Positions 2,896-21,591 are shown, numbered from the stretch's first letter. The stretch: 64,000 nt of DNA from Moraxella sp. (GCA_030525705.1 JAUNEE010000001.1:13705-77704), one strand, 5' to 3'. A program made the numbers and translations. The notes: generated from the letters alone by a model not told the origin.

Positions 2896-3831
2896 ATGAA
2901 TCCTTACGGTGTTTTTCGCTATGTGCCTTTGTCTGTTTTGCGGACATTGGCACGTTTTGTTGCGTGGATGATTTTGCTTATGCCCAATCTGAGCATAAAC
3001 CGCTCTGTGCATACAAATCTCATGCTTGCCTATCCCAAACTCGGTGTTGGCGAGCGAAAGGCACTGCATCGGCAAATCGTCATCAATCAGTGCCTAACCA
3101 GCGTCGAGTCGATAAAATCATGGGCAATGCCGCCCGAGTGGTCGACCGCCCAAATAGCTAAGGTGCATAACCAAGCAGCACTCGAAAAAGCACTTGCCAA
3201 CCCTAAAGGTATGCTTGCCATTGTTCCGCACCTTGGGACTTGGGAAATTATGAATGCGTGGTTAAACCAGTTTGGCAGCCCCACCATTATGTACAAGCCC
3301 GTCAAAGGTAAGCTAAGCAACGACTTTGTACTACAAGGTCGCCAACGCCTAAACGCCACGCTAGTTCCGACAGATGGCACGGGCGTCAAAGCCATCTTTA
3401 AAACCTTAAAAGAAGGCGGTTTTAGTATTATCCTGCCCGACCACGTTCCTGACCCATCAGGCGGCGTGGTTGTGCCATTTTTTGGCATTCCTTGCTTGTC
3501 CTCGACCCTTGCACCGAAGCTTGCCAACAAAACAGGCTGTGCTTTGCTTGGGCTATCCTGCATTCGCATAGATGATGGATGCTTTGAGATTTTTTGTACG
3601 CCTTTAGAGAATCCTAACTTATATCATAAAGACCCGAAGATTGCGACTTTGGCACTCAATCACGTCATACAAGCGATGATTACAGGACGAGATGAGCATT
3701 ATATGTGGGGCTATCGACGATTTAAGCACGTTCCAAACATAGAAAACATCTACTGGTATACAGAGGCAGAATTAAAACCCGTCATTGAACACTATCACGC
3801 GATTGATTTAGATAAGACAACTATGGAGTAG
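2896..3831 (+). CDS. lipid A late acyltransferase (HtrB/MsbB, LpxL/LpxX family)
   Basis: PHLGTWE catalytic motif, LPDH, VVPFFG, YMWGYRRFK. Confidence 0.88.
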   Translation: MNPYGVFRYVPLSVLRTLARFVAWMILLMPNLSINRSVHTNLMLAYPKLGVGERKALHRQIVINQCLTSVESIKSWAMPPEWSTAQIAKVHNQAALEKALANPKGMLAIVPHLGTWEIMNAWLNQFGSPTIMYKPVKGKLSNDFVLQGRQRLNATLVPTDGTGVKAIFKTLKEGGFSIILPDHVPDPSGGVVVPFFGIPCLSSTLAPKLANKTGCALLGLSCIRIDDGCFEIFCTPLENPNLYHKDPKIATLALNHVIQAMITGRDEHYMWGYRRFKHVPNIENIYWYTEAELKPVIEHYHAIDLDKTTME

Positions 3832-3836
3832 ATTTC

Positions 3837-4583
3837 ATGAAAGAAAATTATTATATTATCTGTATGAAATGGGGCAAAAAATACGGTGCAGATTACGTTA
3901 ATCGTCTGTACAATATGGTTAAACGCCATTGCACCCTTGATTTTCAAATGGTTTGTCTTACCGATGATGAAACAGGCATTGATAAAAACGTCAAATGCCA
4001 TCCCATTCCCAAATTGAATTTACCCGACAATATCCCTGAGCGTGGCTGGAAAAAACTCACCACCTTTAAACCTGAATTATATGATTTAAAAGGGACGGCT
4101 TTATTTTTAGATATTGATATTGTCATTGTTGATAATATCGATTGTTTTTTCACCCATCAAGCACAGCATGAAGACAGTGTGATGATTATCCGTGACTGGA
4201 AAAAACCTTGGCGAATGGTGGGGAATTCATCGGTTTATCGTTTTAAAGTCGGACAAAATACTTATCCGAATTTATTAAATTATTTTGAAAATAATTTTGA
4301 AAAAGTACGTTCCGAAGTACGCCACGAACAGGCATTTTTATCCAATTATCTAAGAGAACATCATCATTTGGAATATTGGGATAGCTCGTGGTGTGTGAGT
4401 TTTAAATATCAGTGCGTACAACCTTTTCCAATGAGTTTTTTTAAAGCCCCTATTTTGCCAGAAACCGCTAAAATGGTGATTTTTCACGGTGAGGTCAATC
4501 CACCAGATGCCATTATTGGACGCAGTGGAAAATGGTATCGTAAAGTTTTGCCTACCCCTTGGATTGTGGAGCATTGGAAATGA
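3837..4583 (+). CDS. putative GT-A fold glycosyltransferase (unassigned family)
   Basis: ICMKWGKKYGADYVNRLYNMV N-terminus, LFLDIDIVI DxD motif, VIFHGEVNP; lies in the LOS operon. Confidence 0.7.
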   Translation: MKENYYIICMKWGKKYGADYVNRLYNMVKRHCTLDFQMVCLTDDETGIDKNVKCHPIPKLNLPDNIPERGWKKLTTFKPELYDLKGTALFLDIDIVIVDNIDCFFTHQAQHEDSVMIIRDWKKPWRMVGNSSVYRFKVGQNTYPNLLNYFENNFEKVRSEVRHEQAFLSNYLREHHHLEYWDSSWCVSFKYQCVQPFPMSFFKAPILPETAKMVIFHGEVNPPDAIIGRSGKWYRKVLPTPWIVEHWK

Positions 4584-6166
4584 GCTACAAATTATCTGTG
4601 GTCATGATTGTTAAAAATGAATCTAAAAATTTAATGATTTCTTTGCCCGCACTGGAAGGCTTGGCAGATGAAATTATTATTTTAGATAGCGGGAGTACGG
4701 ATAATAGCCGCGAAATCGCTGAGCAATATGGGGCAAAATGGTTTGTGAATACAAACTGGCAAGGATTTGGAAAGCAGCGTCAAACTGCCCAGTCCTATGC
4801 CGCAGGTGATTGGATTCTAGCCCTTGATGCCGATGAAGAAATTACACCTGAATTAAAACAAAGTATTTTAGCAGTTATCCAAAATAAACCTGAAAATACG
4901 GTCTATGGTATTAAACGCATTGATTGTGTTTTCGGGCAAGAAATTGACAATAAATATTGGGCAATTAAAGCCCATTGGCGATTATATCCAAAACATTTTC
5001 AATATGACGATAATCTGGTACATGAATCTGTGGTTTTAAATAATGCAAAAACAGAGCATTTAAAAGGTTTTTTACGTCATCATACCGCAGAAACGCCATT
5101 ATTTTGGCTGACCAAGCGTTTAGAATATGCTAAAGCATGGGCAGATGACCGCCATAGACAAGGCAAAAAAGGGAAGTTTCATAAAGTAATTTTAAATCCT
5201 TTTTGGGCTTTTTTTAAACAATATTTTTTTGATGGACGTTTTTTACAAGGGCGTTATGGCTTAATTTATTCTTTATTATTTACTCAATATACATTTAATA
5301 AATATGCGATTTTATACGATTTAACCCACAATCAAGCGGAACAAGCGTTTTTAAAATCCATTGATATGGCGCAGCAGTTACAACCTATTGATTTATCACA
5401 AAAGAAAAGTACATTATCTTTAGTGATGATTTTAAAAAATGAAAGTAAACATTTAAAGGCTTGTTTAGATACTGTCCATGATATTGTCGATGAAATTATC
5501 ATTTTAGACAGTGGAAGTACAGACCATACCAAACAAATCGCCGAGCAATACGGGGCAAAATGGTATGTCAATACAAACTGGCAAGGGTTTGGCAAGCAGC
5601 GTCAAATCGCCCAAAGCTATGCCACCAGCGACTATGTTCTGGTGTTAGATGCCGATGAACGCTTAGACCAAGAGTTACGCCAATCCATCGTTAATATTTT
5701 AAATCAACCAGTACAAACCGATAAAGTATTTAGTATCGCTCGTGTTAATACATTTTGTGGTGTGGAAGTCCAGCCAAGAAAATGGTATACAGACAAACTG
5801 GCACGGCTGTATGCAAATCAGCATTTTAAATATTCTGATTTAGAAGTACATGAATCACTTGACCAAAAAGGTGTACCGAGCCAAGTTTTAAATGGTTATT
5901 TGCCTCATATTACTAATGATAACTTGCACCATTTTTTATTTAAAAATATAAGATATAGCCATGACTGGGCAAAAGAAAAATACAATAAAGGCAAACGTGT
6001 TAGTTTAATTGGTTTATTATTTCGCTCTTGGTTCTCATTTATTCGAGAATATATTATGCGTGCTGATTTTATGGGTGGTACATATGGCTTTATTTTAGCA
6101 GTCGCATCATTAGGATATACCATGGATAAATACATTATGCTTTGGCATATAAATCAGGAGAAATAA
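4580..6166 (+). CDS. two-domain GT2 glucosyltransferase, Lgt3-like (tandem WaaE/KdtX-type domains)
   Basis: Two copies of LSxVMIxKNE...IILDSGSTD...WQGFGKQRQ...LDADE...VHES. ATG at 4580 overlaps the upstream TGA. Confidence 0.88.
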   Translation: MSYKLSVVMIVKNESKNLMISLPALEGLADEIIILDSGSTDNSREIAEQYGAKWFVNTNWQGFGKQRQTAQSYAAGDWILALDADEEITPELKQSILAVIQNKPENTVYGIKRIDCVFGQEIDNKYWAIKAHWRLYPKHFQYDDNLVHESVVLNNAKTEHLKGFLRHHTAETPLFWLTKRLEYAKAWADDRHRQGKKGKFHKVILNPFWAFFKQYFFDGRFLQGRYGLIYSLLFTQYTFNKYAILYDLTHNQAEQAFLKSIDMAQQLQPIDLSQKKSTLSLVMILKNESKHLKACLDTVHDIVDEIIILDSGSTDHTKQIAEQYGAKWYVNTNWQGFGKQRQIAQSYATSDYVLVLDADERLDQELRQSIVNILNQPVQTDKVFSIARVNTFCGVEVQPRKWYTDKLARLYANQHFKYSDLEVHESLDQKGVPSQVLNGYLPHITNDNLHHFLFKNIRYSHDWAKEKYNKGKRVSLIGLLFRSWFSFIREYIMRADFMGGTYGFILAVASLGYTMDKYIMLWHINQEK

Positions 6167-6201
6167 GATAGATAAACAAACGCTAAAAAATCAGGCAAAC
6201 T

Positions 6202-7023
6202 ATGAAAAATCAGGTTATTAGTTTAAAAAATGCAGCAGACAGACGCACGCATATTACGCAGGAGTTCTCTAGGCAAGGTGTTTCTTTTGATTTTTTTGAC
6301 GCCATTACACCAGAATTACTCGAGAAAACCGCTCAAGCCCTTTCTATTAACATCATGGATAATGCCTTACTGTCCATGGGTGAAAAAGCCTGTTTTTTAA
6401 GTCATGTTTGCCTATGGCAAAAAATGATAGATGAAAATCTGCCTTATATGGCGATTTTTGAAGATGATATTTATTTGGGCAAAAATGCCCAGTTATTTTT
6501 ACAAGAAACGGATTGGCTTCCAAAAAAAGCAGATGAATTTTTAATAAAACTAGAGGGCTTTGATAAAAATAGGCAGTTTAATCATACCCCTTTATTTATA
6601 AAAGACGGTCGTCATTTGGTATGTCTGCACGAAGAGCATTTGGGTGCAGCAGGTTATCTTCTATCTTATAAAATGGCAGAAAAACTGTTAATGCTGGTGC
6701 GTCATGAGATGGTTTTATCTCCTGTTGATAATTTAATCTTTGGGTATTATCCGTTTGTAAAAAATAGCTATCTGGTATACCAATTGAACCCTGCCCTTTG
6801 TATTCAAAGTGACCGATGCTCTCTTTTTTTAGAGCACAATAAAAACAAAGTTTTTAATAGTCAGCTTTTAGATGAAAGAATACAACACAGAGAAAAACAA
6901 GGTTTTGATTTAAATAAAAAAAAGAAAGGGCTTTTTCATAAAATTATCAGGGAAATCGCCCGCCCTTTCTTAAGACTTTACAAAGCCCTACAGCAAAGAA
7001 AAAACAGCATAGGATTTCGTTAA
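6202..7023 (+). CDS. GT25 LOS glycosyltransferase (Lgt2/LgtB/Lex1-like)
   Basis: VISLKNAADRR, FFDAITP, GEKACFLSH, IFEDD, GAAGYLLS. Confidence 0.9.
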   Translation: MKNQVISLKNAADRRTHITQEFSRQGVSFDFFDAITPELLEKTAQALSINIMDNALLSMGEKACFLSHVCLWQKMIDENLPYMAIFEDDIYLGKNAQLFLQETDWLPKKADEFLIKLEGFDKNRQFNHTPLFIKDGRHLVCLHEEHLGAAGYLLSYKMAEKLLMLVRHEMVLSPVDNLIFGYYPFVKNSYLVYQLNPALCIQSDRCSLFLEHNKNKVFNSQLLDERIQHREKQGFDLNKKKKGLFHKIIREIARPFLRLYKALQQRKNSIGFR

Positions 7024-7835
7024 TGCCAAATACTTGCCAAGTCATCAGCTTAAACAACGCCACGGATAGACGCTCACATATCGAGCATACTTTTAAGGCC
7101 GCCAAGGTGGATTATGAATTTTTTGACGCCATTACGCCCGATACGTTGGTAGATATGGGAAAACTGCTCGGTCTTAATAATTTATTATCAAATAAAAGGC
7201 TGTCCATGGGTGAAAAATCCTGCTTTTTAAGTCATATTGCCATTTGGCAAAAAATGATAGATGATGAGCTGCCCTATGTTATTGTTTTTGAAGATGATGT
7301 GCTTTTAGGGGAAAATGCCGCCGATATTTTTATGGATAAAACATGGCTATCTATAATCTGTGACAACATAGATGTCTTGAAATTTGAAACCTTTTATGAA
7401 AAAGTTCATTTAAATCATGCCGCTCTTTTTTTATCCAAGTCTTTACCCAAAGAAAATCCACCACGACATTTATACCGCCTAAAAAGCCCACAAATGGGTG
7501 CGGGTGCTTATTTAATTTCTTCAAATGCTGCAAAACAGCTGTTAAAAAAAATACAAGAAACACCCAGTCATGCTTTAATGGCAATAGACCATATATTATT
7601 TGAGGTATTTATTCAGGAATTTAATATTTATCAAATGAAACCTGCGATTGCCTGCCAGTTAATGTTTCAAGATAAAGAAAAATTGCCCAGTCAGCTAGAA
7701 GTGCATAGAATCAGCAATGCCAACAACTCAAATAAACTCCAATACACCCTCCCCCAAAAAATCCTTAATATTTTTAAACGCCTAAAACGCAGCATCGGTA
7801 AAAGAACGTTTTATCAAACGATTGAGTTTAAATAA
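7023..7835 (+). CDS. GT25 LOS glycosyltransferase, tandem paralog
   Basis: VISLNNATDRR, FFDAITP, GEKSCFLSH, VFEDD, GAGAYLIS. Translationally coupled (TAATG). Confidence 0.9.
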   Translation: MPNTCQVISLNNATDRRSHIEHTFKAAKVDYEFFDAITPDTLVDMGKLLGLNNLLSNKRLSMGEKSCFLSHIAIWQKMIDDELPYVIVFEDDVLLGENAADIFMDKTWLSIICDNIDVLKFETFYEKVHLNHAALFLSKSLPKENPPRHLYRLKSPQMGAGAYLISSNAAKQLLKKIQETPSHALMAIDHILFEVFIQEFNIYQMKPAIACQLMFQDKEKLPSQLEVHRISNANNSNKLQYTLPQKILNIFKRLKRSIGKRTFYQTIEFK

Positions 7836-7859
7836 ACTCTTAAAAATAGACGGTTTATT

Positions 7860-7962
7860 TCTTGAGCGATGCCTACAGACGGGAAAAACAATAGTGACTC
7901 AATAAATCTGCTTTGAGCGGTTTTTCTTGTTTTTGAGTTTTTCATATTTTAAGTCTTGCAGG
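7860..7962. repeat. highly degenerate copy of the dispersed intergenic element
   Basis: gggaaaaacaatagtgactcaataaatctgctttgagcggtttttcttgttttt resembles the copies at 10951-11035 and 40043-40167. Confidence 0.35.
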
Positions 7963-7971
7963 GCTGAATAT

Positions 7972-8001
7972 AAAAAAGACGATTTAAAAACCGTCTTTTT
8001 T
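7972..8001. terminator. bidirectional rho-independent terminator
   Basis: aaaaaagacg-atttaaaaac-cgtctttttt between convergent genes. Confidence 0.75.
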
Positions 8002-8009
8002 ATCATTTT

Positions 8010-8999
8010 TCACTCATCTGCCATATGTAGTCTTGCTTTAATATTGGCTTTGGCACGAGGTTTTTGGGGATTTAGCGTTTCGCCCGCCAGTACTTTTTCA
8101 TAACAGACTTGATAGGATTTCGCCATAGCGGTATGGCTAAAATGGATTTTTGCGTGCTCATGGCAAGCCCTGCGGTCGAAACGGTCAATGTCTTTTACGG
8201 CTTCAGTCAGCACTTCATAGCGGTCAGACAGCACGCCCAGATTTTCTTGATTGATAATATCAGGCAGTGAGCCAAAAGGTGTGGCAAAGACAGGACAGCC
8301 CAAATACAAACTCTCCGTCACCGCAAGCCCAAAAGGTTCATGCCACAGCACAGGGAAAATTAGCCCTTTTGAATTGGCGATAAGCGTGTTTTTCTCTTCA
8401 CCGCCCACCATGCCATGAAAATGCAGACTGGGCGACAGATAAAAATACGGATTTCTGCGGATATTAAAGCGATTACCACCCAAAACATGCAAGGATTTGC
8501 CCGCAGCTTTGGCGATACGCACCGTGCCTTGCAGGTTTTTTACACGCCATGACGCTTTTGCCAAAAAATGCACATAGTCTTTAGGCTTATCTAAATTGGG
8601 CTTGCCATAACTTTCCCAGTACAGCCCATTATGCACATAACACACAGCTGTATTATTTTCGGCGTGCTTACTGGATAAATAAATGGTGTTGATGGGAAAT
8701 TCTTTTTCAACTTCTGAATTGCTATGCTCTGTGCAAACAAACGGCTTAGACAGCTCGCCCTCATAAGGCCAATGAAAATGCACGATATCGGGCCACTGTC
8801 CAATCTGCTCATCAAAGGACCTGGCATCATCGTATACTTGTACATCGGGGTGATTGTTGGCATTGGCTTTTAATAGATAACGCACCTCATGCCCCATTTC
8901 TTTTTGGGCAAGCCCCAATGCCCAAAGTACACGCTCTGTTCCGCCGTATTTTGGCGGTGGCAAAGGCATACGAGTTAAAAGTACGTGCAGGATTTTCAT
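8010..8999 (-). CDS. GT4 (GT-B) glycosyltransferase
   Basis: LPPPKYGGTERV and FPVLWHEPFGLAVTESLYLGCPV (EX7E motif). Confidence 0.9.
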   Translation of the reverse strand: MKILHVLLTRMPLPPPKYGGTERVLWALGLAQKEMGHEVRYLLKANANNHPDVQVYDDARSFDEQIGQWPDIVHFHWPYEGELSKPFVCTEHSNSEVEKEFPINTIYLSSKHAENNTAVCYVHNGLYWESYGKPNLDKPKDYVHFLAKASWRVKNLQGTVRIAKAAGKSLHVLGGNRFNIRRNPYFYLSPSLHFHGMVGGEEKNTLIANSKGLIFPVLWHEPFGLAVTESLYLGCPVFATPFGSLPDIINQENLGVLSDRYEVLTEAVKDIDRFDRRACHEHAKIHFSHTAMAKSYQVCYEKVLAGETLNPQKPRAKANIKARLHMADE

Positions 9000-9018
9000 A
9001 AAGCCTCCGCATCAATCA

Positions 9019-9047
9019 TTGACAAAAAATAGATATATTGCAATAAT
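9019..9047 (+). promoter_or_regulatory. sigma70 promoter for the 9111 operon
   Basis: TTGACA-17 bp-AATAAT with TG extension. Confidence 0.55.
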
Positions 9048-9110
9048 ACCACAGTTTTTATAAAAAGTCATGAACCGTTAATCGTCCATTTCAAATACAA
9101 GTGAATACCT

Positions 9111-10079
9111 ATGAAAATTCTGTTTCATGATAATCAGCTAAGCTATCGTGGTACTTCCAATGCAATGTTCGATTATGCATTTTATAGCAGAGAACTTCTT
9201 GGGCATGAGCCAGTAATCACCTACCAAAAGGACAATGAAAATAATTTTACACCCGCAATTAAAAGATTTTGTGACAACTTCGAAGTCATACCCTACCAAA
9301 ATACACAAGAACTAAAAAATATCATCAAAAATGAGCAAATTGACTTATTTTACAAAATTACTGGCGGCGAAAAAGAGAATCTGGGCATTGATATAAAAAC
9401 AGTCATTCATGCAGTCTTTAAGCATTATGAACCTTATGGGGATGTTTATGCTTATGTATCAAAATGGCTTTCTTTAGAAATGAGTCAAGGGCAATCACCT
9501 TTTGTTCCGCATATCATTCACTTGCCAGACCATCAAGCAGATTTAAGGGCGGAATTAGGCATTCCAAAAGACGCCATCGTTTTTGGTCAATATGGCGGTG
9601 CCGAATCCTTTGATATTAAATTTGTCCAAAAAACAATAAAACGCTTATCCAAAAAAAGAAAAGATTTATTCTTTTTATTTATGGGGACAAATCCTTTTGC
9701 CAAAGCCAATCTCTTTTTTAAATATAAAAATATCATATTTTTGCCAACCAATGTTGATATGATGTATAAAGTTGCTTTTATCAACACCTGTGACGCCTTT
9801 ATTCATGCCAGACATCGGGGTGAAACATTTGGTATTGCCATCGGGGAATTCTCCTCAAAAAATAAACCCATTATTACTTTTGGAGATTCTGAAGAAAAGA
9901 ATCATTTACAGGTATTAAAGGATAAAGCGATTTTATATAGCAATGAGCATGAATTAACTGACATTTTAATGTCTTTTAATCCTAATGTTATGAAACAAAA
10001 AGATTGGGATTGCTACAGTCAAGCATATTCCCCTGCCAATGTCATGACGCAATTCAACCAAGTTTTTATAGAAAATTAA
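9111..10079 (+). CDS. putative GT-B glycosyltransferase (divergent GT4-like)
   Basis: NQLSYRGTSNAMFDYA, LRAELGIP, CDAFIHARHRGETFGIAIGE (EX7E). Confidence 0.72.
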   Translation: MKILFHDNQLSYRGTSNAMFDYAFYSRELLGHEPVITYQKDNENNFTPAIKRFCDNFEVIPYQNTQELKNIIKNEQIDLFYKITGGEKENLGIDIKTVIHAVFKHYEPYGDVYAYVSKWLSLEMSQGQSPFVPHIIHLPDHQADLRAELGIPKDAIVFGQYGGAESFDIKFVQKTIKRLSKKRKDLFFLFMGTNPFAKANLFFKYKNIIFLPTNVDMMYKVAFINTCDAFIHARHRGETFGIAIGEFSSKNKPIITFGDSEEKNHLQVLKDKAILYSNEHELTDILMSFNPNVMKQKDWDCYSQAYSPANVMTQFNQVFIEN

Positions 10080-10091
10080 GCGAGATTTTTC

Positions 10092-10880
10092 ATGAGTTTA
10101 TCCACGCATGAATTTGACTTATCTCAAGTAGAATTTCATTCTTTTCATTGGGATAATTTTAATCAAGATGTTTTAAATGCTCACAAAAAAGTCATGACGC
10201 ATTTTGGCTTAAATGTCACTTACACCCAAGAAAATATTCCGCATGGGCAATGGCTCGACCGTGTCATTGGGCAATCAAAGAGCAAAGTTGTAGCAATTAT
10301 CGAGCCTGATTTGATTCCTTTAAATAAAGACATTGTCGAAAAAGCAGCTCGGTATGTCTTTGAAAATGATACTTTTTTAGGCTGTGCACAAGTCTCCAAC
10401 CACATTCACCCTGCAACGCACGTTTTTGCGTCCCCCGCATTCTTTTTTATCACTCCAGGCTGCTATGAAAAGCTCGGGCGTCCCTCTTTTTTAGAAACTA
10501 GGCGTGCTGATGTCGCTGAAGAATTAACGTTTGCTGCTGAGCGTATCGGACTACGCTTTAAAACCTTATTTCCAAAATGCTATGAGCGTCCGCCCGTAGA
10601 AGGCGTGTGGCGACTGGGCTCGTATGGGCATTATGGTATTGGTACGGTTTTTGAGGGTGGCGTTTATCACTTATTCCAAAGCCGTCTGGCGGCGAATGTT
10701 GACTTATTTGTCACACGCTGTGAAGAGGTTCTGTCTGGGCGTTTTGATGACAGCAGCTTTATTCCTTGTACGGGATTTGACAAACCTGCACAGGTGGTCG
10801 CCCCACCCTATGCCTATCCTTGGTTCTGCAAAACTAACACCCTAAGACGCTGGTATAGAAGCTATAAAAAACGCTGTTAA
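10092..10880 (+). CDS. hypothetical protein, possible GT-A-like glycan-modifying enzyme
   Basis: 262-aa ORF co-transcribed with a GT; IIEPDLIPL sits where a DxD motif would be. Confidence 0.55.
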   Translation: MSLSTHEFDLSQVEFHSFHWDNFNQDVLNAHKKVMTHFGLNVTYTQENIPHGQWLDRVIGQSKSKVVAIIEPDLIPLNKDIVEKAARYVFENDTFLGCAQVSNHIHPATHVFASPAFFFITPGCYEKLGRPSFLETRRADVAEELTFAAERIGLRFKTLFPKCYERPPVEGVWRLGSYGHYGIGTVFEGGVYHLFQSRLAANVDLFVTRCEEVLSGRFDDSSFIPCTGFDKPAQVVAPPYAYPWFCKTNTLRRWYRSYKKRC

Positions 10881-12264: not shown

Positions 12265-14121
12265 ATGATAGAAAAACTCACATTCGGCTTATTCAAAGAA
12301 GAAGATTCCCGCAATTTTATGCGGCTAATGGCTTATGTTAAGCCCTATAAGGCGCGCATTGCTTTTGCTTTATTGGCGATTATTGGTGTCGCCATCACCG
12401 AGAGTTATTTGGCAGCATTTTTAGCACCGCTGATAAATCAAGGCTTCTCCACCCCCACAGGCGTACCGCCGCAAATACCAGAGAATCTTACAGGCATTGC
12501 CAGCACTTTAATTCATTGGAAAAATCAATTCCATTACGCCATCTGGGAAACAGAAAATAAAGTGTGGGTTGTGCCTTTATTTTTTATGTCTTTGGTTGTT
12601 TTTCGGGGTATTTGTCGCTTTGTCAGTAGTTATTTGATGACATGGGTGGCGGTGGTAACGGTCAGTAATTTACGCCGAGATATGTTTGATAAAATGCTTT
12701 CTTTGCCCTCAAAAGAGTTTCAGGAGACACCATCTGGGGTGATGTTAATGAACATGGTGCAAATGGCAGAAAGTTCTTTTAATAACGCCGCCAACGCCTT
12801 TATCGTTTTAACTCGAGATACATTGATTGTTATTGGCTTGGTATGTGTTCTTTTATATCTAAACTGGCAGTTAAGTTTGATTGTTTTGTTGATGTTTCCA
12901 GTGCTTTCGGGATTATCTCGTTATTATAGAAATAAGCTCAAAGAAGTAATTAACAGCGCCCAGCTTTCAATCGGCTCTTTAAACAACACAGTCAATGAAG
13001 TGCATCAAGGTCACAGGGTGATAAAGCTGTTCGGCGGTCATGGTCAAGCAGCCGCCAGATTCGCCGCCGTTAATGGCACCATTGTGCGTCTGGGCAAAAA
13101 AATCACTCAGGCGACATCGGCACGTTCGCCTTTTAGCGAGGTGATTGGTTCTATGGCTTTGGCGGTGGTGATTTTTATTGCACTTTGGCAAAGTCAAAAA
13201 GGTCTAACCACCATCGGTGAATTCATTGCTTTTATCGTCGCAATGATGCAAATGTTCGGACCAATCAAAAATCTGGCCAATGTCAGCATTCCCATGCAAA
13301 CCATGTTTTTAGCGGCAGATGGCGTATGTCAATTTATGGATTTAAATTCCGAAACCGATAATGGCAAAATTGAATTAAAAAACGTGGTTGGTTCTTTAAA
13401 ATATAAGAATATTTATGTAAAATACGCAGCAGAAAACAAAAATGCGTTGGATAATTTCAATCTAGACATTAAAGCGGGTGAAAAAATTGCCCTAGTGGGT
13501 CGTTCTGGCAGTGGCAAAAGCACCGCTGTTAATTTACTGCCCCGCTTTGTCGAAGCGACAGCAGGGGAAATTCTTTTAGATGGCGTAAATATTGACGAGA
13601 TTAGCCTAAGAAGCTTGCGTAGCCAGTTTGCGCTTGTTTCTCAAGAAACTTTTTTATTCGATGACACCTTATTTGAAAATGTCCGCTACTCTAAACCCGA
13701 CGCAACAGAAACTGAGGTGCTAGCGGCATTAGAGGCTGCCAATTTAAAAGAAATGGTGCAATCCTCGCCCGAGGGTTTACACCAACGCATCGGTCCAAAT
13801 GGCAGCAACCTTTCGGGCGGACAGCGTCAAAGGGTTTCCATTGCCCGTGCCATCTTAAAAGACGCACCGATTTTACTCCTAGATGAGGCAACCAGTGCCT
13901 TAGACAATGAATCGGAACACTTGGTGCAGCAGGCCTTAGAACGCCTTATGCGTGGACGCACCAGCATTATCGTGGCACACCGCCTTACCACCATTGAGCA
14001 GGCGGATCGCATTGTTGTGATGGACGAAGGGCGAATCATCGAAGAGGGGTCGCACCACGCACTCATGTCAGAAGGCGGTTATTATGCCAAATTACGTAAT
14101 CTTAGTGCTTTAAATGCTTAA
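12265..14121 (+). CDS. msbA: MsbA-family ABC half-transporter (lipid-glycan flippase)
   Basis: Six-TM domain plus NBD: GRSGSGKS, LSGGQRQR, LLLDEATSALDNESE, IVAHRL. Confidence 0.88.
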   Translation: MIEKLTFGLFKEEDSRNFMRLMAYVKPYKARIAFALLAIIGVAITESYLAAFLAPLINQGFSTPTGVPPQIPENLTGIASTLIHWKNQFHYAIWETENKVWVVPLFFMSLVVFRGICRFVSSYLMTWVAVVTVSNLRRDMFDKMLSLPSKEFQETPSGVMLMNMVQMAESSFNNAANAFIVLTRDTLIVIGLVCVLLYLNWQLSLIVLLMFPVLSGLSRYYRNKLKEVINSAQLSIGSLNNTVNEVHQGHRVIKLFGGHGQAAARFAAVNGTIVRLGKKITQATSARSPFSEVIGSMALAVVIFIALWQSQKGLTTIGEFIAFIVAMMQMFGPIKNLANVSIPMQTMFLAADGVCQFMDLNSETDNGKIELKNVVGSLKYKNIYVKYAAENKNALDNFNLDIKAGEKIALVGRSGSGKSTAVNLLPRFVEATAGEILLDGVNIDEISLRSLRSQFALVSQETFLFDDTLFENVRYSKPDATETEVLAALEAANLKEMVQSSPEGLHQRIGPNGSNLSGGQRQRVSIARAILKDAPILLLDEATSALDNESEHLVQQALERLMRGRTSIIVAHRLTTIEQADRIVVMDEGRIIEEGSHHALMSEGGYYAKLRNLSALNA

Positions 14122-14148
14122 TTTCATATTTTTTTATAATGCAAGAAA

Positions 14149-17100
14149 GTGACTATGCTATCACCTAATCTCCCTTTAATTTCTATCATCATTCCTTATT
14201 ATAATTGCAAAGAATATATTGCAGAAACCCTGCAGTCTATTGAAATGCAAACTTATATGAATATCGAAACCATTGTGATCAATGATGGCTCAGATAGACC
14301 TAATACTGCCTATATTGAATCTTTAATTCAAAGAAAAAAAGCAGAGCACAAAAACATTCATTACGCCTACCAAACAAACAAAGGGGTTTCCTCTGCTAGA
14401 AATACGGGTGGTCGTTTAGCTTGTGGTGATTATATTTTATTTTTAGATGCTGATGATAAATTACACCCAGAATTTATTCAAAAAACCTTATCCGCATTTA
14501 TCCATACACCTAACTGCGTTTTGGCTTATACCAAAGCAGAATATTTTGACGCCAAAGTAGGCGAATGGAAACTGCCGCCCTATGTAGGCATTAAAAGCCT
14601 ATTAACGGGGAATAAAATTCCCGTGACTGCTTTACATCGCATGAGTGACTTTATTCGTCTGCATGGTTTTGATGAACATCTACAGAATCACGAAGATTGG
14701 GATTATTGGATTCGCCTTTTAAAAGATGGCGGTGCGGTTGCTTATTTGACGGATATTTTGTTTTTTTATAGAAAAAGGCAAAATAACAGCTCGCTTAGTG
14801 ACAGTTTACTGAGTATAGGCTATCAACGAGCATGGCAAGCAGTTTATGATAAAAATAAAGAACTGTATCTACAGCACAATCTAAGTTTTTTTGATTTGGC
14901 ATCTTCTGTCGCAAATGCAGAAAGCTGGCAGAAAAAATATGAGGAAATGAGTGCTGTGCAAGTCACCACACTTGCCAGCCAAACTCATGTCTTAAATCAA
15001 CAAACAGCCTTAATTGAGCAAATTAACACTCTGCAAGAAAGATTGGCTGAGCACGAGTCTTTAATCAAAGAACAGCAAAAAGAAATTCAGCTTTGGCAAA
15101 AAAAATATGAAGACGGCATTCAAGAAAATAATACAGCCTTAAATCAATACAATACCACCTTAAATCACCAGTTAAACTTGGCTGACAAAAATAACAGATT
15201 GCAAAAAGATTTGATTGCCGCAGCCCAAGAGGCTTTAGCGATGAAATCTGAAAATGAACGATTGTCAAAAGAAAATATGACAATCTTAGCGGATAAAGCC
15301 CTCGCCGAAAATCATTTGGCACTCATCAATCACGCCCATCAAAATGTATTTACACAGCTAGAACAACAATCACATAAGCATAAAAAATACAAAAATCTGG
15401 TTATTTTGCAGTTATTAAAACCGCTTATTCAGTTAGAAGTCGGCTTGCGTTCCTTGAATCGCTACCGCAAGGCATTTCGCATATTGGTGCAAGAAAAAGG
15501 CAGTTTAGGCAAAGCCTATCAAACCTTCCGCCGTCATGTAAAACAGCATGGATTAAAAAGCGGGAAACGCCTATTAAAAAAGACATTGACCGATAACCGT
15601 TCCGCCTTTGACACCCCCGTACTTTTTACTCAGGTCTTAGAATATAAATCGGACTATCAACCAAAAGTATCTGTCATCGTTCCAAATTATAACCATGCCG
15701 ATTATATGGTTGATAGACTTTCTTCTATCATCAATCAAAGTTATAAAAATATTGAACTTATTATTTTAGATGACAATTCATCGGATAATAGCATAGCAGT
15801 CATTGAGGGATTTTTAGCAGATAAATCCATTGATTATCAACTCATAAAAAATGAAAAAAATTCAGGCAATGTTTTTAAGCAGTGGAAAAAGGGCTTTGAA
15901 TTAGCCACAGGTAAGCTTGTTTGGATTTGCGAAAGTGATGACACTTGTGAGCCTAACTTTTTACAGGAAATTGTTCCGCACTTTAGAGAGCAGACGGTTA
16001 ATATTGCCTTTGGTCGCATTCAGTTTATTGATAAAAAAGGTAATTTTTTAGAGGGCTTGGACGCTTATAGAGAAAGAAGCGAACAAGGCATTTGGCAGAG
16101 CGTCTGCATTCGACCCGCCTTTGAATGGTTCAATCAAGCCTTCGGTGTGAGCAATGTTTTTGCGAACGCCAGCGGTGGGTTAATACGCCGCCAATCACTA
16201 GCACCAAAAATCTGGGAGAATGCCACTAACTTTAAAATTTGTGGTGACTGGTATTTGTATCTGCACTTTGCCAATGCAGGTAGGATTGCTTACGTTCCAA
16301 CAGCGGTTTCTTATTTTCGTCAACACCAAAAGAACACCTCTGCAAGCAATTTCAACCAGCTTTATTATTATGAAGAGCATTTTCGCATTTTAAGTGAAAT
16401 TAAAAAAGTTTGGCGTATTTCACCCAGTACAGAGAAAAAATTTATTGATTCTATTAAAGAGCAATACGAGCGAATGAATATGCAAAAAACACAGGGTGAA
16501 TTTCATCTTGCGTTTAAAGAGCAGTTCTCACACATGAACCAGCTTAATGATATTAGTTTGCACATTCAAATATACTTTTTAGGTTTTCACCCTGGTGGCG
16601 GTGAGTTGTTCCCGATTGTACTTGCCAATCAATTAAAAGCGCTTGGGCATACCATCTCTATGGTCGCCTTGGATTTTAATTATGTGAATTTAGATATGAA
16701 AAATAAGCTAAATGACAGTATTCCTGTTTATCATATCTCTGAGTTACAAAATAATCCACATTTTCTTAAAAATCTAGGCGTTGATGTCATTCATACGCAC
16801 ATTTCAGGTGCTGACCATCATTTAATCAATTATCTTGAAAGAAATAATCTTTCCATTCCCTATCTTGTAACCATGCATGGTTCTCATGATAGAACATTTG
16901 ATGATTATAGCATTGTCAGTACTGAAAAAATGATAAAGTATGTCTCAAAATGGATATATATTGCGGATAAAAATTTGGCATTTTTCCATGATTTGTCGAT
17001 ACCGAAAAATATCAAAAAACTACCCAACGCCATGCCAAAAGACACGAATAAATCAGCTCACAGCAGACACTCTCTTGGCATAAAAGATACAGACATTGCC

Positions 17101-17661
17101 TTTGCATTTGCTGCTAGAGGCATATTTGAAAAAGGCTGGCTGCAGTTAGTAACAGCGTTTGAGGCGGCACTTAAAAAGGAAATGAAGCAAAATATTCATT
17201 TGGTATTGATGGGTTCTGGTGATGCTACCAATGAAGCAAAAAAACTCAGCACGCATACCAATATCCATTTTTTAGGCTATGAATCTGCGGTGAATGATGT
17301 GCTTGCCTTTTCTGATTGTGCTATTTTGCCGTCAAGATTTGCAGGCGAAAGCTATCCTTTGTTTTTAATTCAAGCCATTCAAGAGCATTTGCCCTGTATC
17401 GCCACAGACATTGGTGAGATAAATAATATGCTTGCTTTTAATGACAAAGAATCGGCAGGCATATTATTGCCCAATACACAAAATGACGCTGAATTCATAG
17501 AAGCCTTATCAAACGCAATAATGACCATGTGTGATGACAAAATCCGTTTGGCATATCAAGCGTGCTCTAAAAAAATAGCTGACAGATATGACATGAATTC
17601 ATTGGCATTAGAATATCTGGCTCAGTATGCAGATGCCATGCAAATCAATAGCGAAAAATAG
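14149..17661 (+). CDS. multidomain glycosyltransferase GT2 - coiled coil - GT2 - GT4
   Basis: GT2 ([25 protein letters not shown]), then Q/E/L-rich heptads, a second GT2 ([25 protein letters not shown]) and a GT4 ([26 protein letters not shown]). Confidence 0.88.
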
Positions 17662-17671
17662 GAAATTGCTT

Positions 17672-18739
17672 ATGAATATTTTAATTACAGGCGGTGCGGG
17701 ATTTATCGGTTCTGCGGTGGTACGCCATATTATTAACCACACCGAGCACCGAGTATTAAATGTGGATAAACTCACCTATGCAGGAAATCTAGAATCCCTA
17801 AAAAGCGTGAGCGATAATCCGAACTATCACTTTAGCCAAACAGACATTTGCGACTATGAAAAAATGCAGGCACTGTTTGAGACATTCGCCCCTGATATCG
17901 TCATGCACTTAGCGGCAGAAAGCCATGTTGACCGCTCCATCGCAGGGGCGTCAGAATTTATCCAAACGAACATCATTGGCACATTCACGCTGTTAGAAGT
18001 GGCACGCCATTATTACACCAAGCTTGACGATGAAAAAAAGTCCCGTTTTCGCTTTCATCACATTTCCACCGATGAGGTCTATGGCGACCTAGAAGGCACG
18101 GACGATTTATTTCTTGAAACAACACCCTACGCCCCAAGCTCGCCCTATTCCGCTAGTAAAGCAAGCTCTGACCACCTTGTGCGGGCGTGGCATAGAACCT
18201 ACGGACTACCCGTGGTCATCACCAACTGCTCTAACAACTATGGTCCTTATCACTTCCCTGAAAAACTGATTCCTTTGACCATCTTAAATGCACTAAACGG
18301 TAAGCCCTTGCCCGTCTATGGTAACGGGCTACAGATTCGGGACTGGTTGTATGTCGAAGACCACGCCCGTGCGTTATTTTTGGTGGCGACTACCGCTAAA
18401 ATCGGTGAAACTTATAATATCGGCGGACACAATGAACAAAAAAACATTGATGTCGTCCATGCCATCTGCGAGCTACTAGAAGAACTTGCCCCGAATAAAC
18501 CTGCGGGCGTGACGCACTATCGCGACCTTGTCACCTATGTAAAAGACCGCCCAGGGCATGATTTGCGTTATGCCATTGACGCCAGTAAAATCGAAAAAGA
18601 CCTTGGCTGGACGCCCGAAGAAACCTTCGCTACAGGATTAAAAAAGACCGTACAATGGTACTTGGACAATCAAGACTGGGTAAAAAATGTCCAAAGTGGT
18701 GACTATCAAAACTGGCTAAAAACCCAGTACCAAGCCTAA
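17672..18739 (+). CDS. rfbB: dTDP-glucose 4,6-dehydratase
   Basis: [35 protein letters not shown]. Confidence 0.97.
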
Positions 18740-18762
18740 ATTTTCAGCCAAAAGAGCACATT

Positions 18763-19659
18763 ATGACAAAGATTCTACTACTAGGAAAAAATGGACAAGT
18801 CGGCTTCGAGCTGGCACGCAGCTTACAGCCGTTGGGCAAGGTGATTGCCCTAGATAGAGCCACAGGCGGCGATGTCACCGATTTTTCACAAATGACGCAG
18901 GCATTTGCCAGCCACCGTCCGCATTTTGTGGTGAATGCTACCGCCTACACGGCAGTGGATAAAGCCGAAGAGGATAAAGACACCGCCGATTTAGTCAATC
19001 ATCTGGCGGTGGCTCATTTGGCACAGCTTGCCAAGGCACAGGGCAGCATTTTAATCCATTATTCCACGGATTATGTCTTTGATGGCACGGGTGAGGCGTT
19101 TTGGATAGAGACGGACGCCACAAACCCCGTTAACCACTACGGGGCAACCAAACGTGCAGGCGAGCTTGCCCTTGAGCATAGCGGAGCGGATTTTATCAAT
19201 CTTCGTACCAGCTGGGTGTTTGGTACACACGGCAACAATTTTCTTAAAACCATGCTAAAACTCGCCAAAGACAAAAAAACGCTCGGCATTATCCACGACC
19301 AAGTCGGCAGTCCCACCCCCGCCCAGCTTATCGCTGATGTCACCGCACAGATTATCCGCCAGCTTCAGCTAAACCCCGATTTTCAGGCATTCGGGCATTA
19401 TCATTTAAGTACGGGCGGGCTCTGCTCATGGTATGACTATGCAACTTTTATTTTCAAAGAGGCGCGTACGCTTGGCATGACACTTGTAGTAGAGGAAGTC
19501 AACGCCATCACGACCACCGACTACCCCACCCCCGCCAAGCGTCCGCATAACTCACGGTTGGACACAGGCAAGCTAAAAAGTACCTTTGGACTGTCCTTAC
19601 CCCACTGGCAACATGGCGTCACATACGTTTTAAAGGAGTTAATTCATGACAGGAGCTAA
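18763..19659 (+). CDS. rfbD: dTDP-4-dehydrorhamnose reductase
   Basis: [36 protein letters not shown]. Confidence 0.97.
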
Positions 19660-20557
19660 TATGAAAAAATGCAAAGGCATTATCCTAGCAGGCGGTTCAG
19701 GCACACGCCTACACCCCATTACTATGGGCGTCTCTAAGCAGCTATTACCAATTTATGACAAACCGATGATTTATTATCCCTTGTCGGTGTTAATGCTGGC
19801 GGGCATTCAGGAGATTCTTATCATTTCCACGCCTGAGGATTTGCCAAACTTTGAAAAAATGCTTGGCACGGGTGAAAACATCGGCTTAAAATTGTCCTAC
19901 AAAGTTCAGCCCAGCCCTGATGGCTTGGCACAGGCATTTATTTTAGGCGAGGAATTTATCGGCGAAGACAACGTCTGCTTAATTTTGGGCGATAATATTT
20001 TCTACGGTCAGCACTTTAGTGCACAATTACGCCGTGCCAGCGAGCAGACCACAGGTGCGACCGTTTTCGGGTATTATGTCAATGACCCCGAGCGTTTCGG
20101 GGTTGTGGAATTTGACAAAGACGGCAAAGCATTATCCATCGAAGAAAAGCCCACAAAACCAAAATCCAATTATGCCGTCACAGGTCTGTATTTTTATGAC
20201 AATGACGTGGTAGAAATCGCCAAAAACATTCAGCCTTCCGCCCGTGGCGAGCTTGAAATCACGGATGTCAATAATCTTTATCTAAAAAGAAACAGTCTCA
20301 ATGTCGAGCTTTTGGGGCGTGGCTTTGCATGGCTGGATACAGGAACGCATGACAGCTTATTAGATGCCGGTCACTTTGTGCAGACCATCGAGCATCGTCA
20401 AGGCTTAAAGATTGCCTGCCTAGAAGAAATCGCCTATGCTAATGGCTGGATTGATCAAGCTCAGCTAGTAAAACAAGGTGAATTATTCAAAAAAACAGGC
20501 TATGGGCAGTACCTTTTAAAGCTTGCTAAAGAACCCAAAATGTCCGAGCTTTTATAA
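19646..20557 (+). CDS. rfbA: glucose-1-phosphate thymidylyltransferase
   Basis: [35 protein letters not shown]. Alternative start at 19661; both starts have AGGAG. Confidence 0.97.
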
Positions 20558-20594
20558 ATCGGTGATTTTTAAACCCAGTCATAACGAGCATCAC

Positions 20595-21005
20595 ATGAAA
20601 CAACCTCTTGACGCATCTTCCGACACGTTCGCCAAAAGCATGAAAGGCAAAACAGGCTTCGGACGCATTAAAAAAGCCTTTGGGTATTCTTGTGATGGCT
20701 TTTTGGCGGCATACCGAAGTGAGGCGGCGTTTCGGCAGGTGGTGTGGCTAAATGCCGTACTGTGTCTGCTTTTGTGCTTTTTGCCTTTTGCTTTGACGGT
20801 GAAAATGCTGTTGATTATCATCTCTGCGATTTCAGTGATTGTGGAGCTGTTTAACACAGGGCTTGAAGCAGTGGTAGATAGAATCTCAGATGAATACCAC
20901 CCACTCTCAAAAGTCGCTAAAGATGTTGGTTCGGCGGCGCAGTTTTTAACTCTATGCGTGCAGTGTCTGTTATGGGCATTGGCGATTTTTAGTCTTTTTT
21001 GGTAG
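20595..21005 (+). CDS. dgkA: diacylglycerol kinase (DgkA family)
   Basis: RIKKAFGYSCDG, EAAFRQ, VELFNTGLEAVVDRIS, AKDVGSAA; three TM helices. Confidence 0.93.
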   Translation: MKQPLDASSDTFAKSMKGKTGFGRIKKAFGYSCDGFLAAYRSEAAFRQVVWLNAVLCLLLCFLPFALTVKMLLIIISAISVIVELFNTGLEAVVDRISDEYHPLSKVAKDVGSAAQFLTLCVQCLLWALAIFSLFW

Positions 21006-21009
21006 GTAA

Positions 21010-21591
21010 ATGATGAATATTATCGAAACAAAAATCCCCGATGTGCTTATCTTCGAGCCATGTGTGTTCAGTGATGAGCGAGGTTGGTTCATGGAGAGCT
21101 TTAACCAAAAAGTCTTCGAAGAGGCTCTCACCACCCGTGGTTTTAGCGTGCCGACTTTCGTGCAAGATAACCATTCTTTTTCCAACAAAGGTGTTCTGCG
21201 TGGGCTGCATTATCAGCTTGCACCCCATGCACAGGGCAAGCTTGTGCGAGTGGTGGCAGGACGTGTCCTTGACGTGGCGGTGGACATTCGCCCAGACTCA
21301 CCAACTTTCGGGCAATGGGTAGCCGTGGAGCTTAGCAAAGAAAATCACCGTCAGCTCTGGGTGCCTGAGGGATTTGCACATGGATTTGTTGCCTTAGAAG
21401 ATGGCACAGAATTTTTATACAAAACCACCAATTTTTATCACAAAGACAGCGAGCGTAGTATCGTCTATAACGACAGCGAGCTGAATATTGACTGGCAGGC
21501 AGATGATTTAACGCTCATCATCAATGAAAAAGATGCCAATGCTCCAACGCTAAAAACCGCTGTCGATGAGCTGACACATTTGGCATCATAA
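21010..21591 (+). CDS. rfbC: dTDP-4-dehydrorhamnose 3,5-epimerase
   Basis: DERGWFME, FVQDNHS, GVLRGLHYQ, QLWVPEGFAHGF. Confidence 0.97.
   Translation: MMNIIETKIPDVLIFEPCVFSDERGWFMESFNQKVFEEALTTRGFSVPTFVQDNHSFSNKGVLRGLHYQLAPHAQGKLVRVVAGRVLDVAVDIRPDSPTFGQWVAVELSKENHRQLWVPEGFAHGFVALEDGTEFLYKTTNFYHKDSERSIVYNDSELNIDWQADDLTLIINEKDANAPTLKTAVDELTHLAS

What the first reader, a model, noticed from the sequence alone, without database searches (positions are those of the whole stretch)
12265..21591. Candidate new glycan assembly line: MsbA-type flippase + all-in-one GT with coiled-coil ruler + dTDP-rhamnose genes, with no wzm/wzt/wzx/wzy/waaL in the locus
Seen: one co-oriented unit, msbA -> 1170-aa GT2/coiled-coil/GT2/GT4 -> rmlB-D-A-dgkA-C, with a WbbL-like GT2 divergently upstream and no Wzm/Wzt, Wzx, Wzy or ligase gene in the locus. 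Known: coiled-coil ruler enzymes (E. coli O9a WbdD, WbbB, Geobacillus WsaE) normally work with Wzm/Wzt. MsbA-like half-transporters (PglK, Wzk) can flip lipid-linked glycans. Characterised Moraxella make short LOS. Inference: a length-controlled, rhamnose-containing polymer is built in the cytoplasm, on lipid A-core or on Und-PP, and exported by a dedicated MsbA paralog.
Basis: partly seen in the sequence, partly recalled or inferred. Interest (0 to 1): 0.82.

Follow-up and report, generated by a model that had tools for sequence, protein, structure and literature searches.

The report
Ligase-free, ruler-measured LPS chain pathway
Moraxella-like and many Neisseria-family bacteria carry a sugar-chain-building enzyme with a predicted built-in length ruler directly behind what is usually their only lipid A flippase gene, with no O-antigen exporter found, so they likely build a measured sugar chain straight onto their endotoxin and flip it out whole, a route not described in the papers searched.

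Summary
The genes are real and lie as described. The 1170-aa enzyme has ruler anatomy: GT2, about 150-residue heptad helix, basic amphipathic helices, GT2, GT4. The 'dedicated MsbA paralog' idea is not supported. This MsbA is a distinct long type, about 73% identical to Neisseria MsbA and 36-38% to native Moraxella MsbA. It is the only MsbA in 10 of 13 same-genus carriers. The second msbA in this bin lies on a probably foreign contig, and the bin's own lpxK locus lacks msbA.

The finding is wider than one locus. The ruler linker occurs in 35 of 176 Neisseriaceae genomes, all long-MsbA carriers (35 of 80, against 0 of 91 with only the short type), and in 33 it is the gene directly after msbA. 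No Wzm was found in those 35. A 98%-complete Moraxella carrier also lacks WaaL/PglL, WecA and WbaP-type initiators. The same slot holds Kingella-type pamABC galactan genes in three other genomes.

Best reading (about 55%): a capped, length-set polymer built on lipid A-core and flipped by the housekeeping long MsbA with no ligase. No glycan was measured, and rhamnose content is unproven.

The parts
12265..14121 (+). Long-type MsbA (618 aa), lipid A-core flippase with a 45-aa TM1-TM2 periplasmic loop holding a predicted helix (aa 78-94)
   Evidence: TIGR02203 793.5 bits; TMD alone best matches solved MsbA, E 2e-38; 73-74% to named Neisseria/Wielerella MsbA; loop lengths; model
14149..17661 (+). 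Ruler-type multidomain glycosyltransferase, 1170 aa from GTG (1168 from ATG at 14155)
14173..14898 (+). N-terminal GT2 domain, predicted chain cap/terminator; replaced by a methyltransferase, another GT2, or nothing in relatives
   Evidence: PF00535; module swaps; role inferred
14917..15390 (+). Coiled-coil spacer, aa 257-414, predicted ruler
   Evidence: heptad test; model helix; spacer length about 24-163 aa across relatives
15394..15594 (+). Conserved basic amphipathic helices (aa 416-482), predicted membrane anchor; the family's shared 'linker'
   Evidence: 24% K/R and tied-highest hydrophobic moment in the protein; shared by all module variants
15661..16542 (+). Second GT2 domain, predicted polymerase module 1
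   Evidence: PF00535; pLDDT about 90
16561..17655 (+). GT4 (GT-B) domain, predicted polymerase module 2
   Evidence: PF00534/PF13439; Foldseek top hits are GT4 BshA, E 6e-17
17672..21591 (+). rmlB, rmlD, rmlA, dgkA, rmlC: dTDP-L-rhamnose supply plus a diacylglycerol-kinase-family gene
   Evidence: NCBIfam over cut-off for rmlB/D/A/C; PF01219
11050..11937 (-). Divergent GT2, candidate adapter that primes the core; weak WbbL resemblance
   Evidence: PF00535; TIGR01556 far below cut-off; present in the 4 other Moraxellaceae loci with ruler or cap-GT2 cassettes
2896..10880 (.). Upstream LOS cluster behind aspS: lipid A acyltransferase, 248-aa ORF, double GT2, two GT25, GT4, GT4-like, GT2-like 262-aa ORF
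   Evidence: GC 33-37% for most genes against 46% for the genome

Best explanation
The 1170-aa protein is likely a one-chain polymerase, ruler and cap that grows a repeat-unit glycan directly on lipid A-core in the cytoplasm, and the long-type MsbA encoded just upstream, which is usually the cell's only lipid A flippase, likely flips the finished smooth LPS with no Wzm/Wzt or WaaL step. Steps: (1) upstream LOS enzymes build the core, and the divergent GT2 may prime it (inferred). (2) The amphipathic helices hold the enzyme at the membrane (predicted). (3) The C-terminal GT2 and GT4 alternate to make a two-linkage repeat (inferred from WbbB-like order). (4) When the chain spans the coiled coil, the distal GT2 caps it (inferred). 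(5) Long MsbA binds lipid A and flips the product (lipid A role follows from family membership and sole-copy status; carrying a polymer is inferred). Shown: gene order, domain anatomy, co-occurrence, and the missing genes in the genomes tested.
For: Anatomy matches the published ruler layout, with the terminator distal and polymerase modules membrane-proximal (PMC11231755). Modules swap around a fixed linker: cap is GT2, methyltransferase PF13578 or none; the C-terminal part is GT2-GT4, GT2-GT2, GT4-type pairs, PF13524-GT25-like or WsaF-like; spacer length is 24-163 aa among proteins sharing cap and C-terminal module. The linker is in 35 of 176 Neisseriaceae genomes and 2 of 261 Moraxellaceae including this one. 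It is the first gene after msbA in 33 of the 35 and in both Moraxellaceae; it is four genes later in G818 and across a contig break in G785. All 35 carry long MsbA (80 long-type genomes; 0 of 91 short-only), and 33 of 35 show a single MsbA match. ABC-2 permeases in all 35 were YadH-like, KpsM/CtrC-like (10 genomes) or 370-1100-aa types, none Wzm; 25 lack KpsM too, six of them closed genomes. The same Pfam model detects a real Wzm. G171 (98% complete, ruler gene after msbA) has no PF04932, no PF02397 and only MraY for PF00953. Six of 30 Neisseriaceae carriers, two closed, have only a PglL-size Wzy_C protein. pamABC-type galactan genes lie directly after long msbA in G874, G877 and G754, and a pamABCDE-type run lies two genes on in G758; the K. 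kingae galactan is LPS-attached with an unresolved export route.
Against: No glycan, mutant or transcript data. E. coli MsbA encloses lipid A-core in an inward-facing cavity (PMC6286764), and how a long chain would pass is unexplained. Long MsbA does not need a polymer: 13 of 29 linker-negative long-MsbA Neisseriaceae loci read had no GT directly downstream. Short MsbA also sits among GT genes in 3 of 8 loci, so msbA-LOS linkage is not special to the long type. About 20 of the 35 carriers are near-identical relatives, so counts overstate independence. All 30 Neisseriaceae tested have a PglL-size protein, 24 have a second Wzy_C hit, and the three such loci read are Wzx/Wzy/initiator clusters, so Und-PP chemistry exists there. 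The K. kingae authors report a putative waaL homolog. Several family members lack any cap domain (P0003, G171, G787). This genome is only 64% complete and has kpsMTE. Ligases were sought with one Pfam model only. Distant relatives of the GT2-GT4 module work beside wzm/wzt (L037).
Confidence: 0.55

Rival explanations
1. Short LOS extension only: the three GT domains each add one or a few sugars to the outer core, the coiled coil is a captured relic or scaffold, and MsbA does its ordinary job.
For: The gene sits in the LOS outer-core cluster. The same slot holds small stand-alone GTs, including the N-terminal GT2 on its own followed by GT2 and GT4 genes with no coiled coil (G054, G126, G769, G853). 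Some members have no cap.
Against: Spacer and amphipathic helices are kept across many module combinations. Methyltransferase caps make sense as terminators. Two-gene WbdD/WbdA-like versions occur in the same slot (G803, G810, G760). GlfT2-like polymer synthases use the slot too.
Confidence: 0.2
2. The polymer is built on undecaprenyl-PP, flipped by long MsbA acting like PglK/Wzk, then ligated to lipid A-core or protein by PglL or an unrecognised ligase.
For: All characterised ruler systems use Und-PP (PMC11231755). Long MsbA has a 29-aa periplasmic insert with a predicted helix, reminiscent of the PglK external helix (review PMC4900756). PglL-size proteins are in 30 of 30 Neisseriaceae carriers tested.
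Against: G171 lacks PF02397, WecA-type and PF04932 genes, as does this partial genome. The TMD matches MsbA; PglK is not among the 60 rows shown, and the PglK model scores 211 against a cut-off of 1000.
Confidence: 0.15
3. One reading: a dedicated second MsbA exports the polymer while a canonical MsbA handles lipid A.
For: Two TIGR02203 hits in this bin. G099, G167 and G175 hold both types; G795, G814 and G863 do too. S. meliloti msbA2 is a precedent (PMC3687685).
Against: The bin's second msbA is on C85, which repeats plsB-like, rsmG-like, parA and parB genes of C53 at 62-66% identity, the only such contig pair. C53 reads exbB-exbD-lpxK-kdsB with no msbA. Long MsbA is the sole copy in 10 of 13 same-genus carriers and 33 of 35 ruler-positive Neisseriaceae.
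Confidence: 0.05
4. The product is a capsule-like or O-polymer exported by KpsMTE or by a Wzm/Wzt that was missed.
For: kpsMTE is present in this genome and G171 and in 10 of 35 Neisseriaceae carriers; this genome is incomplete.
Against: 25 of 35 carriers, including closed G632, G767, G775, G788, G792 and G809, show neither KpsM nor Wzm.
Confidence: 0.05

Closest known systems
WbbB (K. pneumoniae O12) and ORF6 of O7; WbdD/WbdA (E. coli O9a)
   Same: Distal cap enzyme, coiled coil, membrane-proximal polymerase modules; one-chain and split versions both occur (PMC11231755).
   Different: Those are ABC-transporter (Wzm/Wzt) systems built on Und-PP and ligated by WaaL. Here no Wzm is found, the neighbour is msbA, and the cap is a GT2. 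No sequence homology to WbbB was tested.
Neisseria/Moraxella LOS outer-core assembly (lgt genes plus MsbA)
   Same: Sugars added on lipid A-core in the cytoplasm, then MsbA export (PMC3526765); same genomic neighbourhood (GT25, glyQ/glyS or aspS).
   Different: Known LOS is short and built by single-domain transferases; no ruler or terminator is described in the passages read.
Kingella kingae pamABCDE galactan LPS
   Same: Polymer attached to LPS, cytoplasmic synthases, no obvious wzx/wzy. pam-type genes occupy the same slot after long msbA.
   Different: Single GlfT2-like synthase, no coiled-coil ruler. The authors hypothesise Wzm/Wzt plus a putative WaaL; 'msbA' occurs 0 times in the main text of both papers.
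[quoted passage not shown]
   Same: A commensal Neisseria makes LPS whose genes were unresolved (PMC3078933); genomes with MsbA 94-100% identical to an N. sicca-named MsbA carry the ruler gene.
   Different: Strain 4320 itself was not examined; that paper pointed to other loci.
PglK (C. jejuni), Wzk (H. pylori, recalled), MsbA2 (S. meliloti)
   Same: MsbA-like half-transporters that move, or are proposed to move, lipid-linked glycans.
   Different: Those are extra paralogs; this is a true MsbA by TMD sequence and usually the sole copy.

Membership tests
MsbA lipid A flippase | TIGR02203 above cut-off; TMD closest to solved MsbA | tested here: met
   793.5 vs 602; top 16 TMD hits are MsbA
MsbA lipid A flippase | Basic ring for lipid A phosphates (E. 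coli R78/R148/K299, numbering recalled) | tested here: met
   Positions 114, 184, 335 are R/K in at least 90% of long and short types; mapping by an offset of 35-36, not by structure
MsbA lipid A flippase | Transports lipid A-core | not testable with these tools
   Sole-copy status supports it
Dedicated MsbA paralog (MsbA2-like) | Coexists with a canonical msbA | tested here: not met
   Sole copy in 10 of 13 same-genus and 33 of 35 ruler-positive genomes; own second copy probably foreign
PglK/Wzk flippase | Sequence family | tested here: not met
   NF050066 211 bits vs 1000
PglK/Wzk flippase | External helix parallel to the membrane | tested here: inconclusive
   Helix 78-94 predicted at pLDDT about 60-70; geometry not measured; PglK not listed
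Coiled-coil ruler terminator/polymerase (WbbB/WbdD/ORF6-O7 type) | Extended coiled coil between distal enzyme and polymerase | tested here: met
Coiled-coil ruler terminator/polymerase (WbbB/WbdD/ORF6-O7 type) | Membrane-associated amphipathic helix after the coil | tested here: met
   Basic amphipathic helices aa 416-482; membrane binding itself is predicted
Coiled-coil ruler terminator/polymerase (WbbB/WbdD/ORF6-O7 type) | Polymerising and terminating activity; length follows coil length | not testable with these tools
   needs enzymology
ABC-transporter-dependent O-antigen pathway | Wzm/Wzt exporter | tested here: not met
   None among PF01061 hits in 35 Neisseriaceae carriers or G171; many hits classed by size plus representatives; own genome 64% complete
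ABC-transporter-dependent O-antigen pathway | Und-P initiating transferase | tested here: inconclusive
   Not found in G171 or own genome; a PF02397 gene is present in G632's Wzx/Wzy cluster
ABC-transporter-dependent O-antigen pathway | WaaL ligase | tested here: inconclusive
   No PF04932 in G171 or own genome; Neisseriaceae have PglL-size and often Wzy-size hits; one Pfam model only
WbbL rhamnosyltransferase (11050-11937) | Rhamnosyltransferase family score | tested here: inconclusive
   TIGR01556 34.8 vs 200.55; WbbL enzymes can share only 12% identity

The most novel reading that the evidence does not exclude
A fourth, ligase-free O-antigen route. A mobile 'long' MsbA subfamily with a periplasmic helical insert has replaced the ancestral flippase in about half of Neisseriaceae and a third of this Moraxella-like genus because it can flip lipid A-core carrying a whole polymer. 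The slot behind it takes interchangeable polymer cassettes: ruler enzymes, split WbdD/WbdA-like pairs and pamABC galactan synthases. This would explain Kingella galactan LPS and commensal Neisseria smooth LPS with one mechanism.
Probability: 0.35. Interest if true: 0.92.

Novelty: new variant of a known kind. Interest (0 to 1): 0.8.

Why it matters
Reviews list three O-antigen routes, all built on undecaprenyl phosphate and joined by WaaL (PMC6286764; PMC12269835), and treat the coiled-coil ruler as a marker of ABC-transporter assembly. A ruler enzyme working on lipid A-core with the housekeeping MsbA would break both rules. It names candidate genes for two open questions: how K. kingae exports its galactan LPS and how commensal Neisseria make smooth LPS. 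It would also widen what MsbA, an antibiotic target, is thought able to carry, and offer a two-gene route to length-defined glycans for glycoengineering.

Tried and rejected
Genome-collection scan with the whole GT gave 1 weak locus. The GT2-GT4 half matched 0 of 41 other same-genus genomes at E 1e-20. Two class-level scans (300 scored and 201 genomes) found no close MsbA outside this genome (one genome was not scored); a phylum scan gave two Neisseriaceae-like handles. The metagenome scan returned 80 loci at 29-41% identity; I read 6, and one (L037) has wzm/wzt beside the homolog. 'Neisseria-type versus Moraxella-type MsbA' was too simple: Neisseriaceae themselves split into long and short types. 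Structure comparison of the MsbA model only showed the generic exporter fold, tied at Z about 33; PglK was not listed. Promoter/terminator scan was uninformative (39 sites vs 24 +/- 5 in an AT-rich region). No RNA holder was listed; the small-share runs were laid only to test gene linkage. Tetranucleotide distance did not single out C85 (rank 12 of 109 windows), so its foreign origin rests on duplicated core genes. The first tree was a quick search, unfinished; the second is FastTree without 11 rows (near-duplicates and partial sequences); no one-clade test was run. Earlier scan findings: none. Literature searches that found no description of this arrangement: (0 papers); the library lacks most subscription papers, and no supplements were read. 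No complex prediction was run.


Full report
Observation. The ORFs are as reported. MsbA passes the lipid A flippase model, and rmlB, D, A and C pass theirs. The 1170-aa protein has GT2, GT2 and GT4 domains. Between the first two lie two heptad segments that beat shuffles (0 and 12 of 2000) and then basic amphipathic helices. AlphaFold gives a long helix and confident C-terminal domains; the second half of the N-terminal GT2 is low-confidence. The unit ends a low-GC LOS cluster that starts behind aspS and a lipid A acyltransferase. Contigs in three other runs span the msbA-GT junction. The genus is taken as Moraxella from named close MsbA hits; this is an inference.

Is MsbA a dedicated paralog? 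The bin (1.45 Mb, 64% complete) has a second MsbA on C85, 36% identical, next to an lpxK. But C85 repeats four core genes of C53 at 62-66% identity plus lpxK, no other contig pair does so, and C53 reads exbB-exbD-lpxK-kdsB with no msbA. C85 is most simply a misbinned or phage-carried piece. Among 41 other genomes of the genus, 13 have the window's type at 71-75% and 10 of them have no other MsbA, including closed G139. The lpxK locus lacks msbA in 5 of 5 carriers read. In 17 of 18 loci read the gene adjoins LOS genes; the last contig is 3 kb. So this is a replacement of the housekeeping flippase, not an extra copy.

The long MsbA. It is 73-74% identical to proteins named Neisseria and Wielerella MsbA. 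In the family around G632 (taken as Neisseriaceae from that identity), 171 of 176 genomes match: by my count 80 have the long type (62-100% to P0222) and 91 only a short type (40-45%); G795, G814 and G863 have both (26 weaker matches were not listed). The TM1-TM2 loop is 43-45 aa in 66 of 67 long sequences and 14-15 aa in 10 of 10 short ones, with a predicted helix at 78-94. A FastTree puts 17 Moraxellaceae long sequences in one branch (97) inside Neisseriaceae long sequences, which suggests one transfer into Moraxellaceae; direction was not formally tested. The TMD is MsbA-like, not PglK-like.

The ruler family. Homologs share the amphipathic linker but swap caps and C-terminal modules, and spacer length runs from about 24 to 163 aa. 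Using the linker as query, 35 of 176 Neisseriaceae genomes hit (30 of 98 in one genus, 5 of 9 in another) and 2 of 261 Moraxellaceae. I read 20 loci from 20 of the 35 genomes, one more, and placed the rest by coordinates: 33 are directly behind msbA, often between glyQ and glyS; G818 is four genes on; G785 is split by a contig end. G753 and G756 have a second copy elsewhere. All 35 have long MsbA. Split versions with cap-GT2, short coil and amphipathic tail followed by a separate GT2-GT4 gene occur in G803, G810 and G760.

Missing machinery. PF01061 hits in all 35 carriers were YadH-like, KpsM/CtrC-like beside KpsT (10 of 10 such loci read; nine also showed KpsE) or larger unrelated permeases (11 loci read, one of them from a non-carrier; the rest classed by size). 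The model detects a real Wzm. In 30 carriers, every genome has a 604-663-aa Wzy_C frame, PglL-like in the one carrier checked, G787; 24 have a second hit, and the three read lie in Wzx/Wzy/initiator clusters. G171 has no Wzy_C, no PF02397 and only MraY. The own genome shows none of these either, but it also misses MraY, which shows its gaps.

A link to a proven polymer. Of 29 linker-negative long-MsbA Neisseriaceae loci read, 16 have a GT gene directly after msbA and 13 do not. Three hold DUF4422, UDP-Galp mutase and GlfT2-like genes there (G874, G877, G754), and G758 has the five-gene run GT111-mutase-GlfT2-GT4-GT25 after an insertion element and glyS. That order matches published pamABCDE. 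G758 and G874 each show one PglL-size Wzy_C protein and no Wzm. The Kingella papers show galactan on LPS, cytoplasmic synthesis, no obvious wzx/wzy, and leave export open.

Mechanism and rivals. The simplest reading that needs no missing gene in any carrier is assembly on lipid A-core and export by long MsbA (0.55). Short LOS extension (0.2) and an Und-PP route through MsbA with PglL or an unknown ligase (0.15) remain. Rhamnose is available in this genome, but rml genes follow msbA in 7 of 18 Moraxellaceae loci, only one of which has the ruler, and no rml operon lies near Neisseriaceae ruler loci, so its place in the polymer is open. Against the best reading: no biochemistry, strong kinship among carriers, long MsbA in strains with no cargo, short MsbA also beside GTs in 3 of 8 loci, and no model for passing a long chain through MsbA.

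Papers seen: PMC11231755 abstract, passages and first part of the Discussion; PMC12269835 one passage and Discussion; bioRxiv 10.1101/2022.06.13.495970 passages; PMC3078933, PMC3526765, PMC4900756, PMC3687685 and PMC6286764 passages only. No supplements were read; they could mention msbA linkage. Wzk, the E. coli residue numbers and the gene labels glyQ/glyS for most loci, fabD, rsmG and plsB rest on recall or on similarity to loci scanned.

Verdict. A real feature, larger than first reported: a new variant joining LOS-style assembly to ruler-controlled polymerisation, with a fair chance of being a separate pathway. Interest 0.8.

Noticed in passing
G000:C85:1-18364 (L002, L010): Contig repeats a parA-parB-lpxK core region of C53 at 62-66% amino-acid identity, carries a native-type msbA and ends in phage-like genes with an integrase 92% identical to one on C63; likely misbinned or phage-carried.
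   Followed up: partly
Neisseriaceae: Two nearly mutually exclusive MsbA types (long in 80, short only in 91 of 176 genomes) are scattered within single genera, a repeated replacement of a core gene.
   Followed up: partly
L196:7331-11091, L225:4821-8632, L233:7281-11172, L195:4602-10466: pamABC-type galactan genes lie at or near the slot behind long msbA.
   Followed up: partly
window 10092-10880: 262-aa ORF with no Pfam hit; nearest Atlas clusters are mostly phage proteins with a GT2-like fold (score 0.98, TM 0.81).
   Followed up: partly
L016, L028, L175, L181, L192, L198: A three-gene cassette or part of it (stand-alone N-terminal GT2, 247-aa GT2, about 510-aa GT4) without a coiled coil is shared by Moraxellaceae and Neisseriaceae, mostly right after msbA.
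   Followed up: no
L018:7077-9046: FdtA-like and DegT-family genes (amino-deoxysugar synthesis typical of O-antigens) follow long msbA in G161, which showed no PF04932 or PF02397 hit.
   Followed up: no
L163:3642-7212 and many Neisseriaceae loci: Runs of two or three related 334-355-aa ORFs with no Pfam hit follow the ruler gene; probably an unannotated glycosyltransferase family.
   Followed up: no
L015:6798-8929, L193:6904-9018, L231, L234, L224: An unannotated protein of about 650-705 aa (apparently two ORFs in G174) recurs in the cargo slot together with a GT2.
   Followed up: no
G000:C39:7048-9618 (L011): kpsM-kpsT-kpsE capsule export genes are present in this genome.
   Followed up: yes
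L206 (G175:C1:852000-871000): The native-type msbA of closed G175 lies about 13 kb from lpxK, in a stretch bracketed by two ORFs with the same N-terminus, which suggests displacement or re-acquisition.
   Followed up: no
window 20523-21005: dgkA-family gene inserted between rmlA and rmlC; not in that position in the 7 other Moraxellaceae rml runs read.
   Followed up: no
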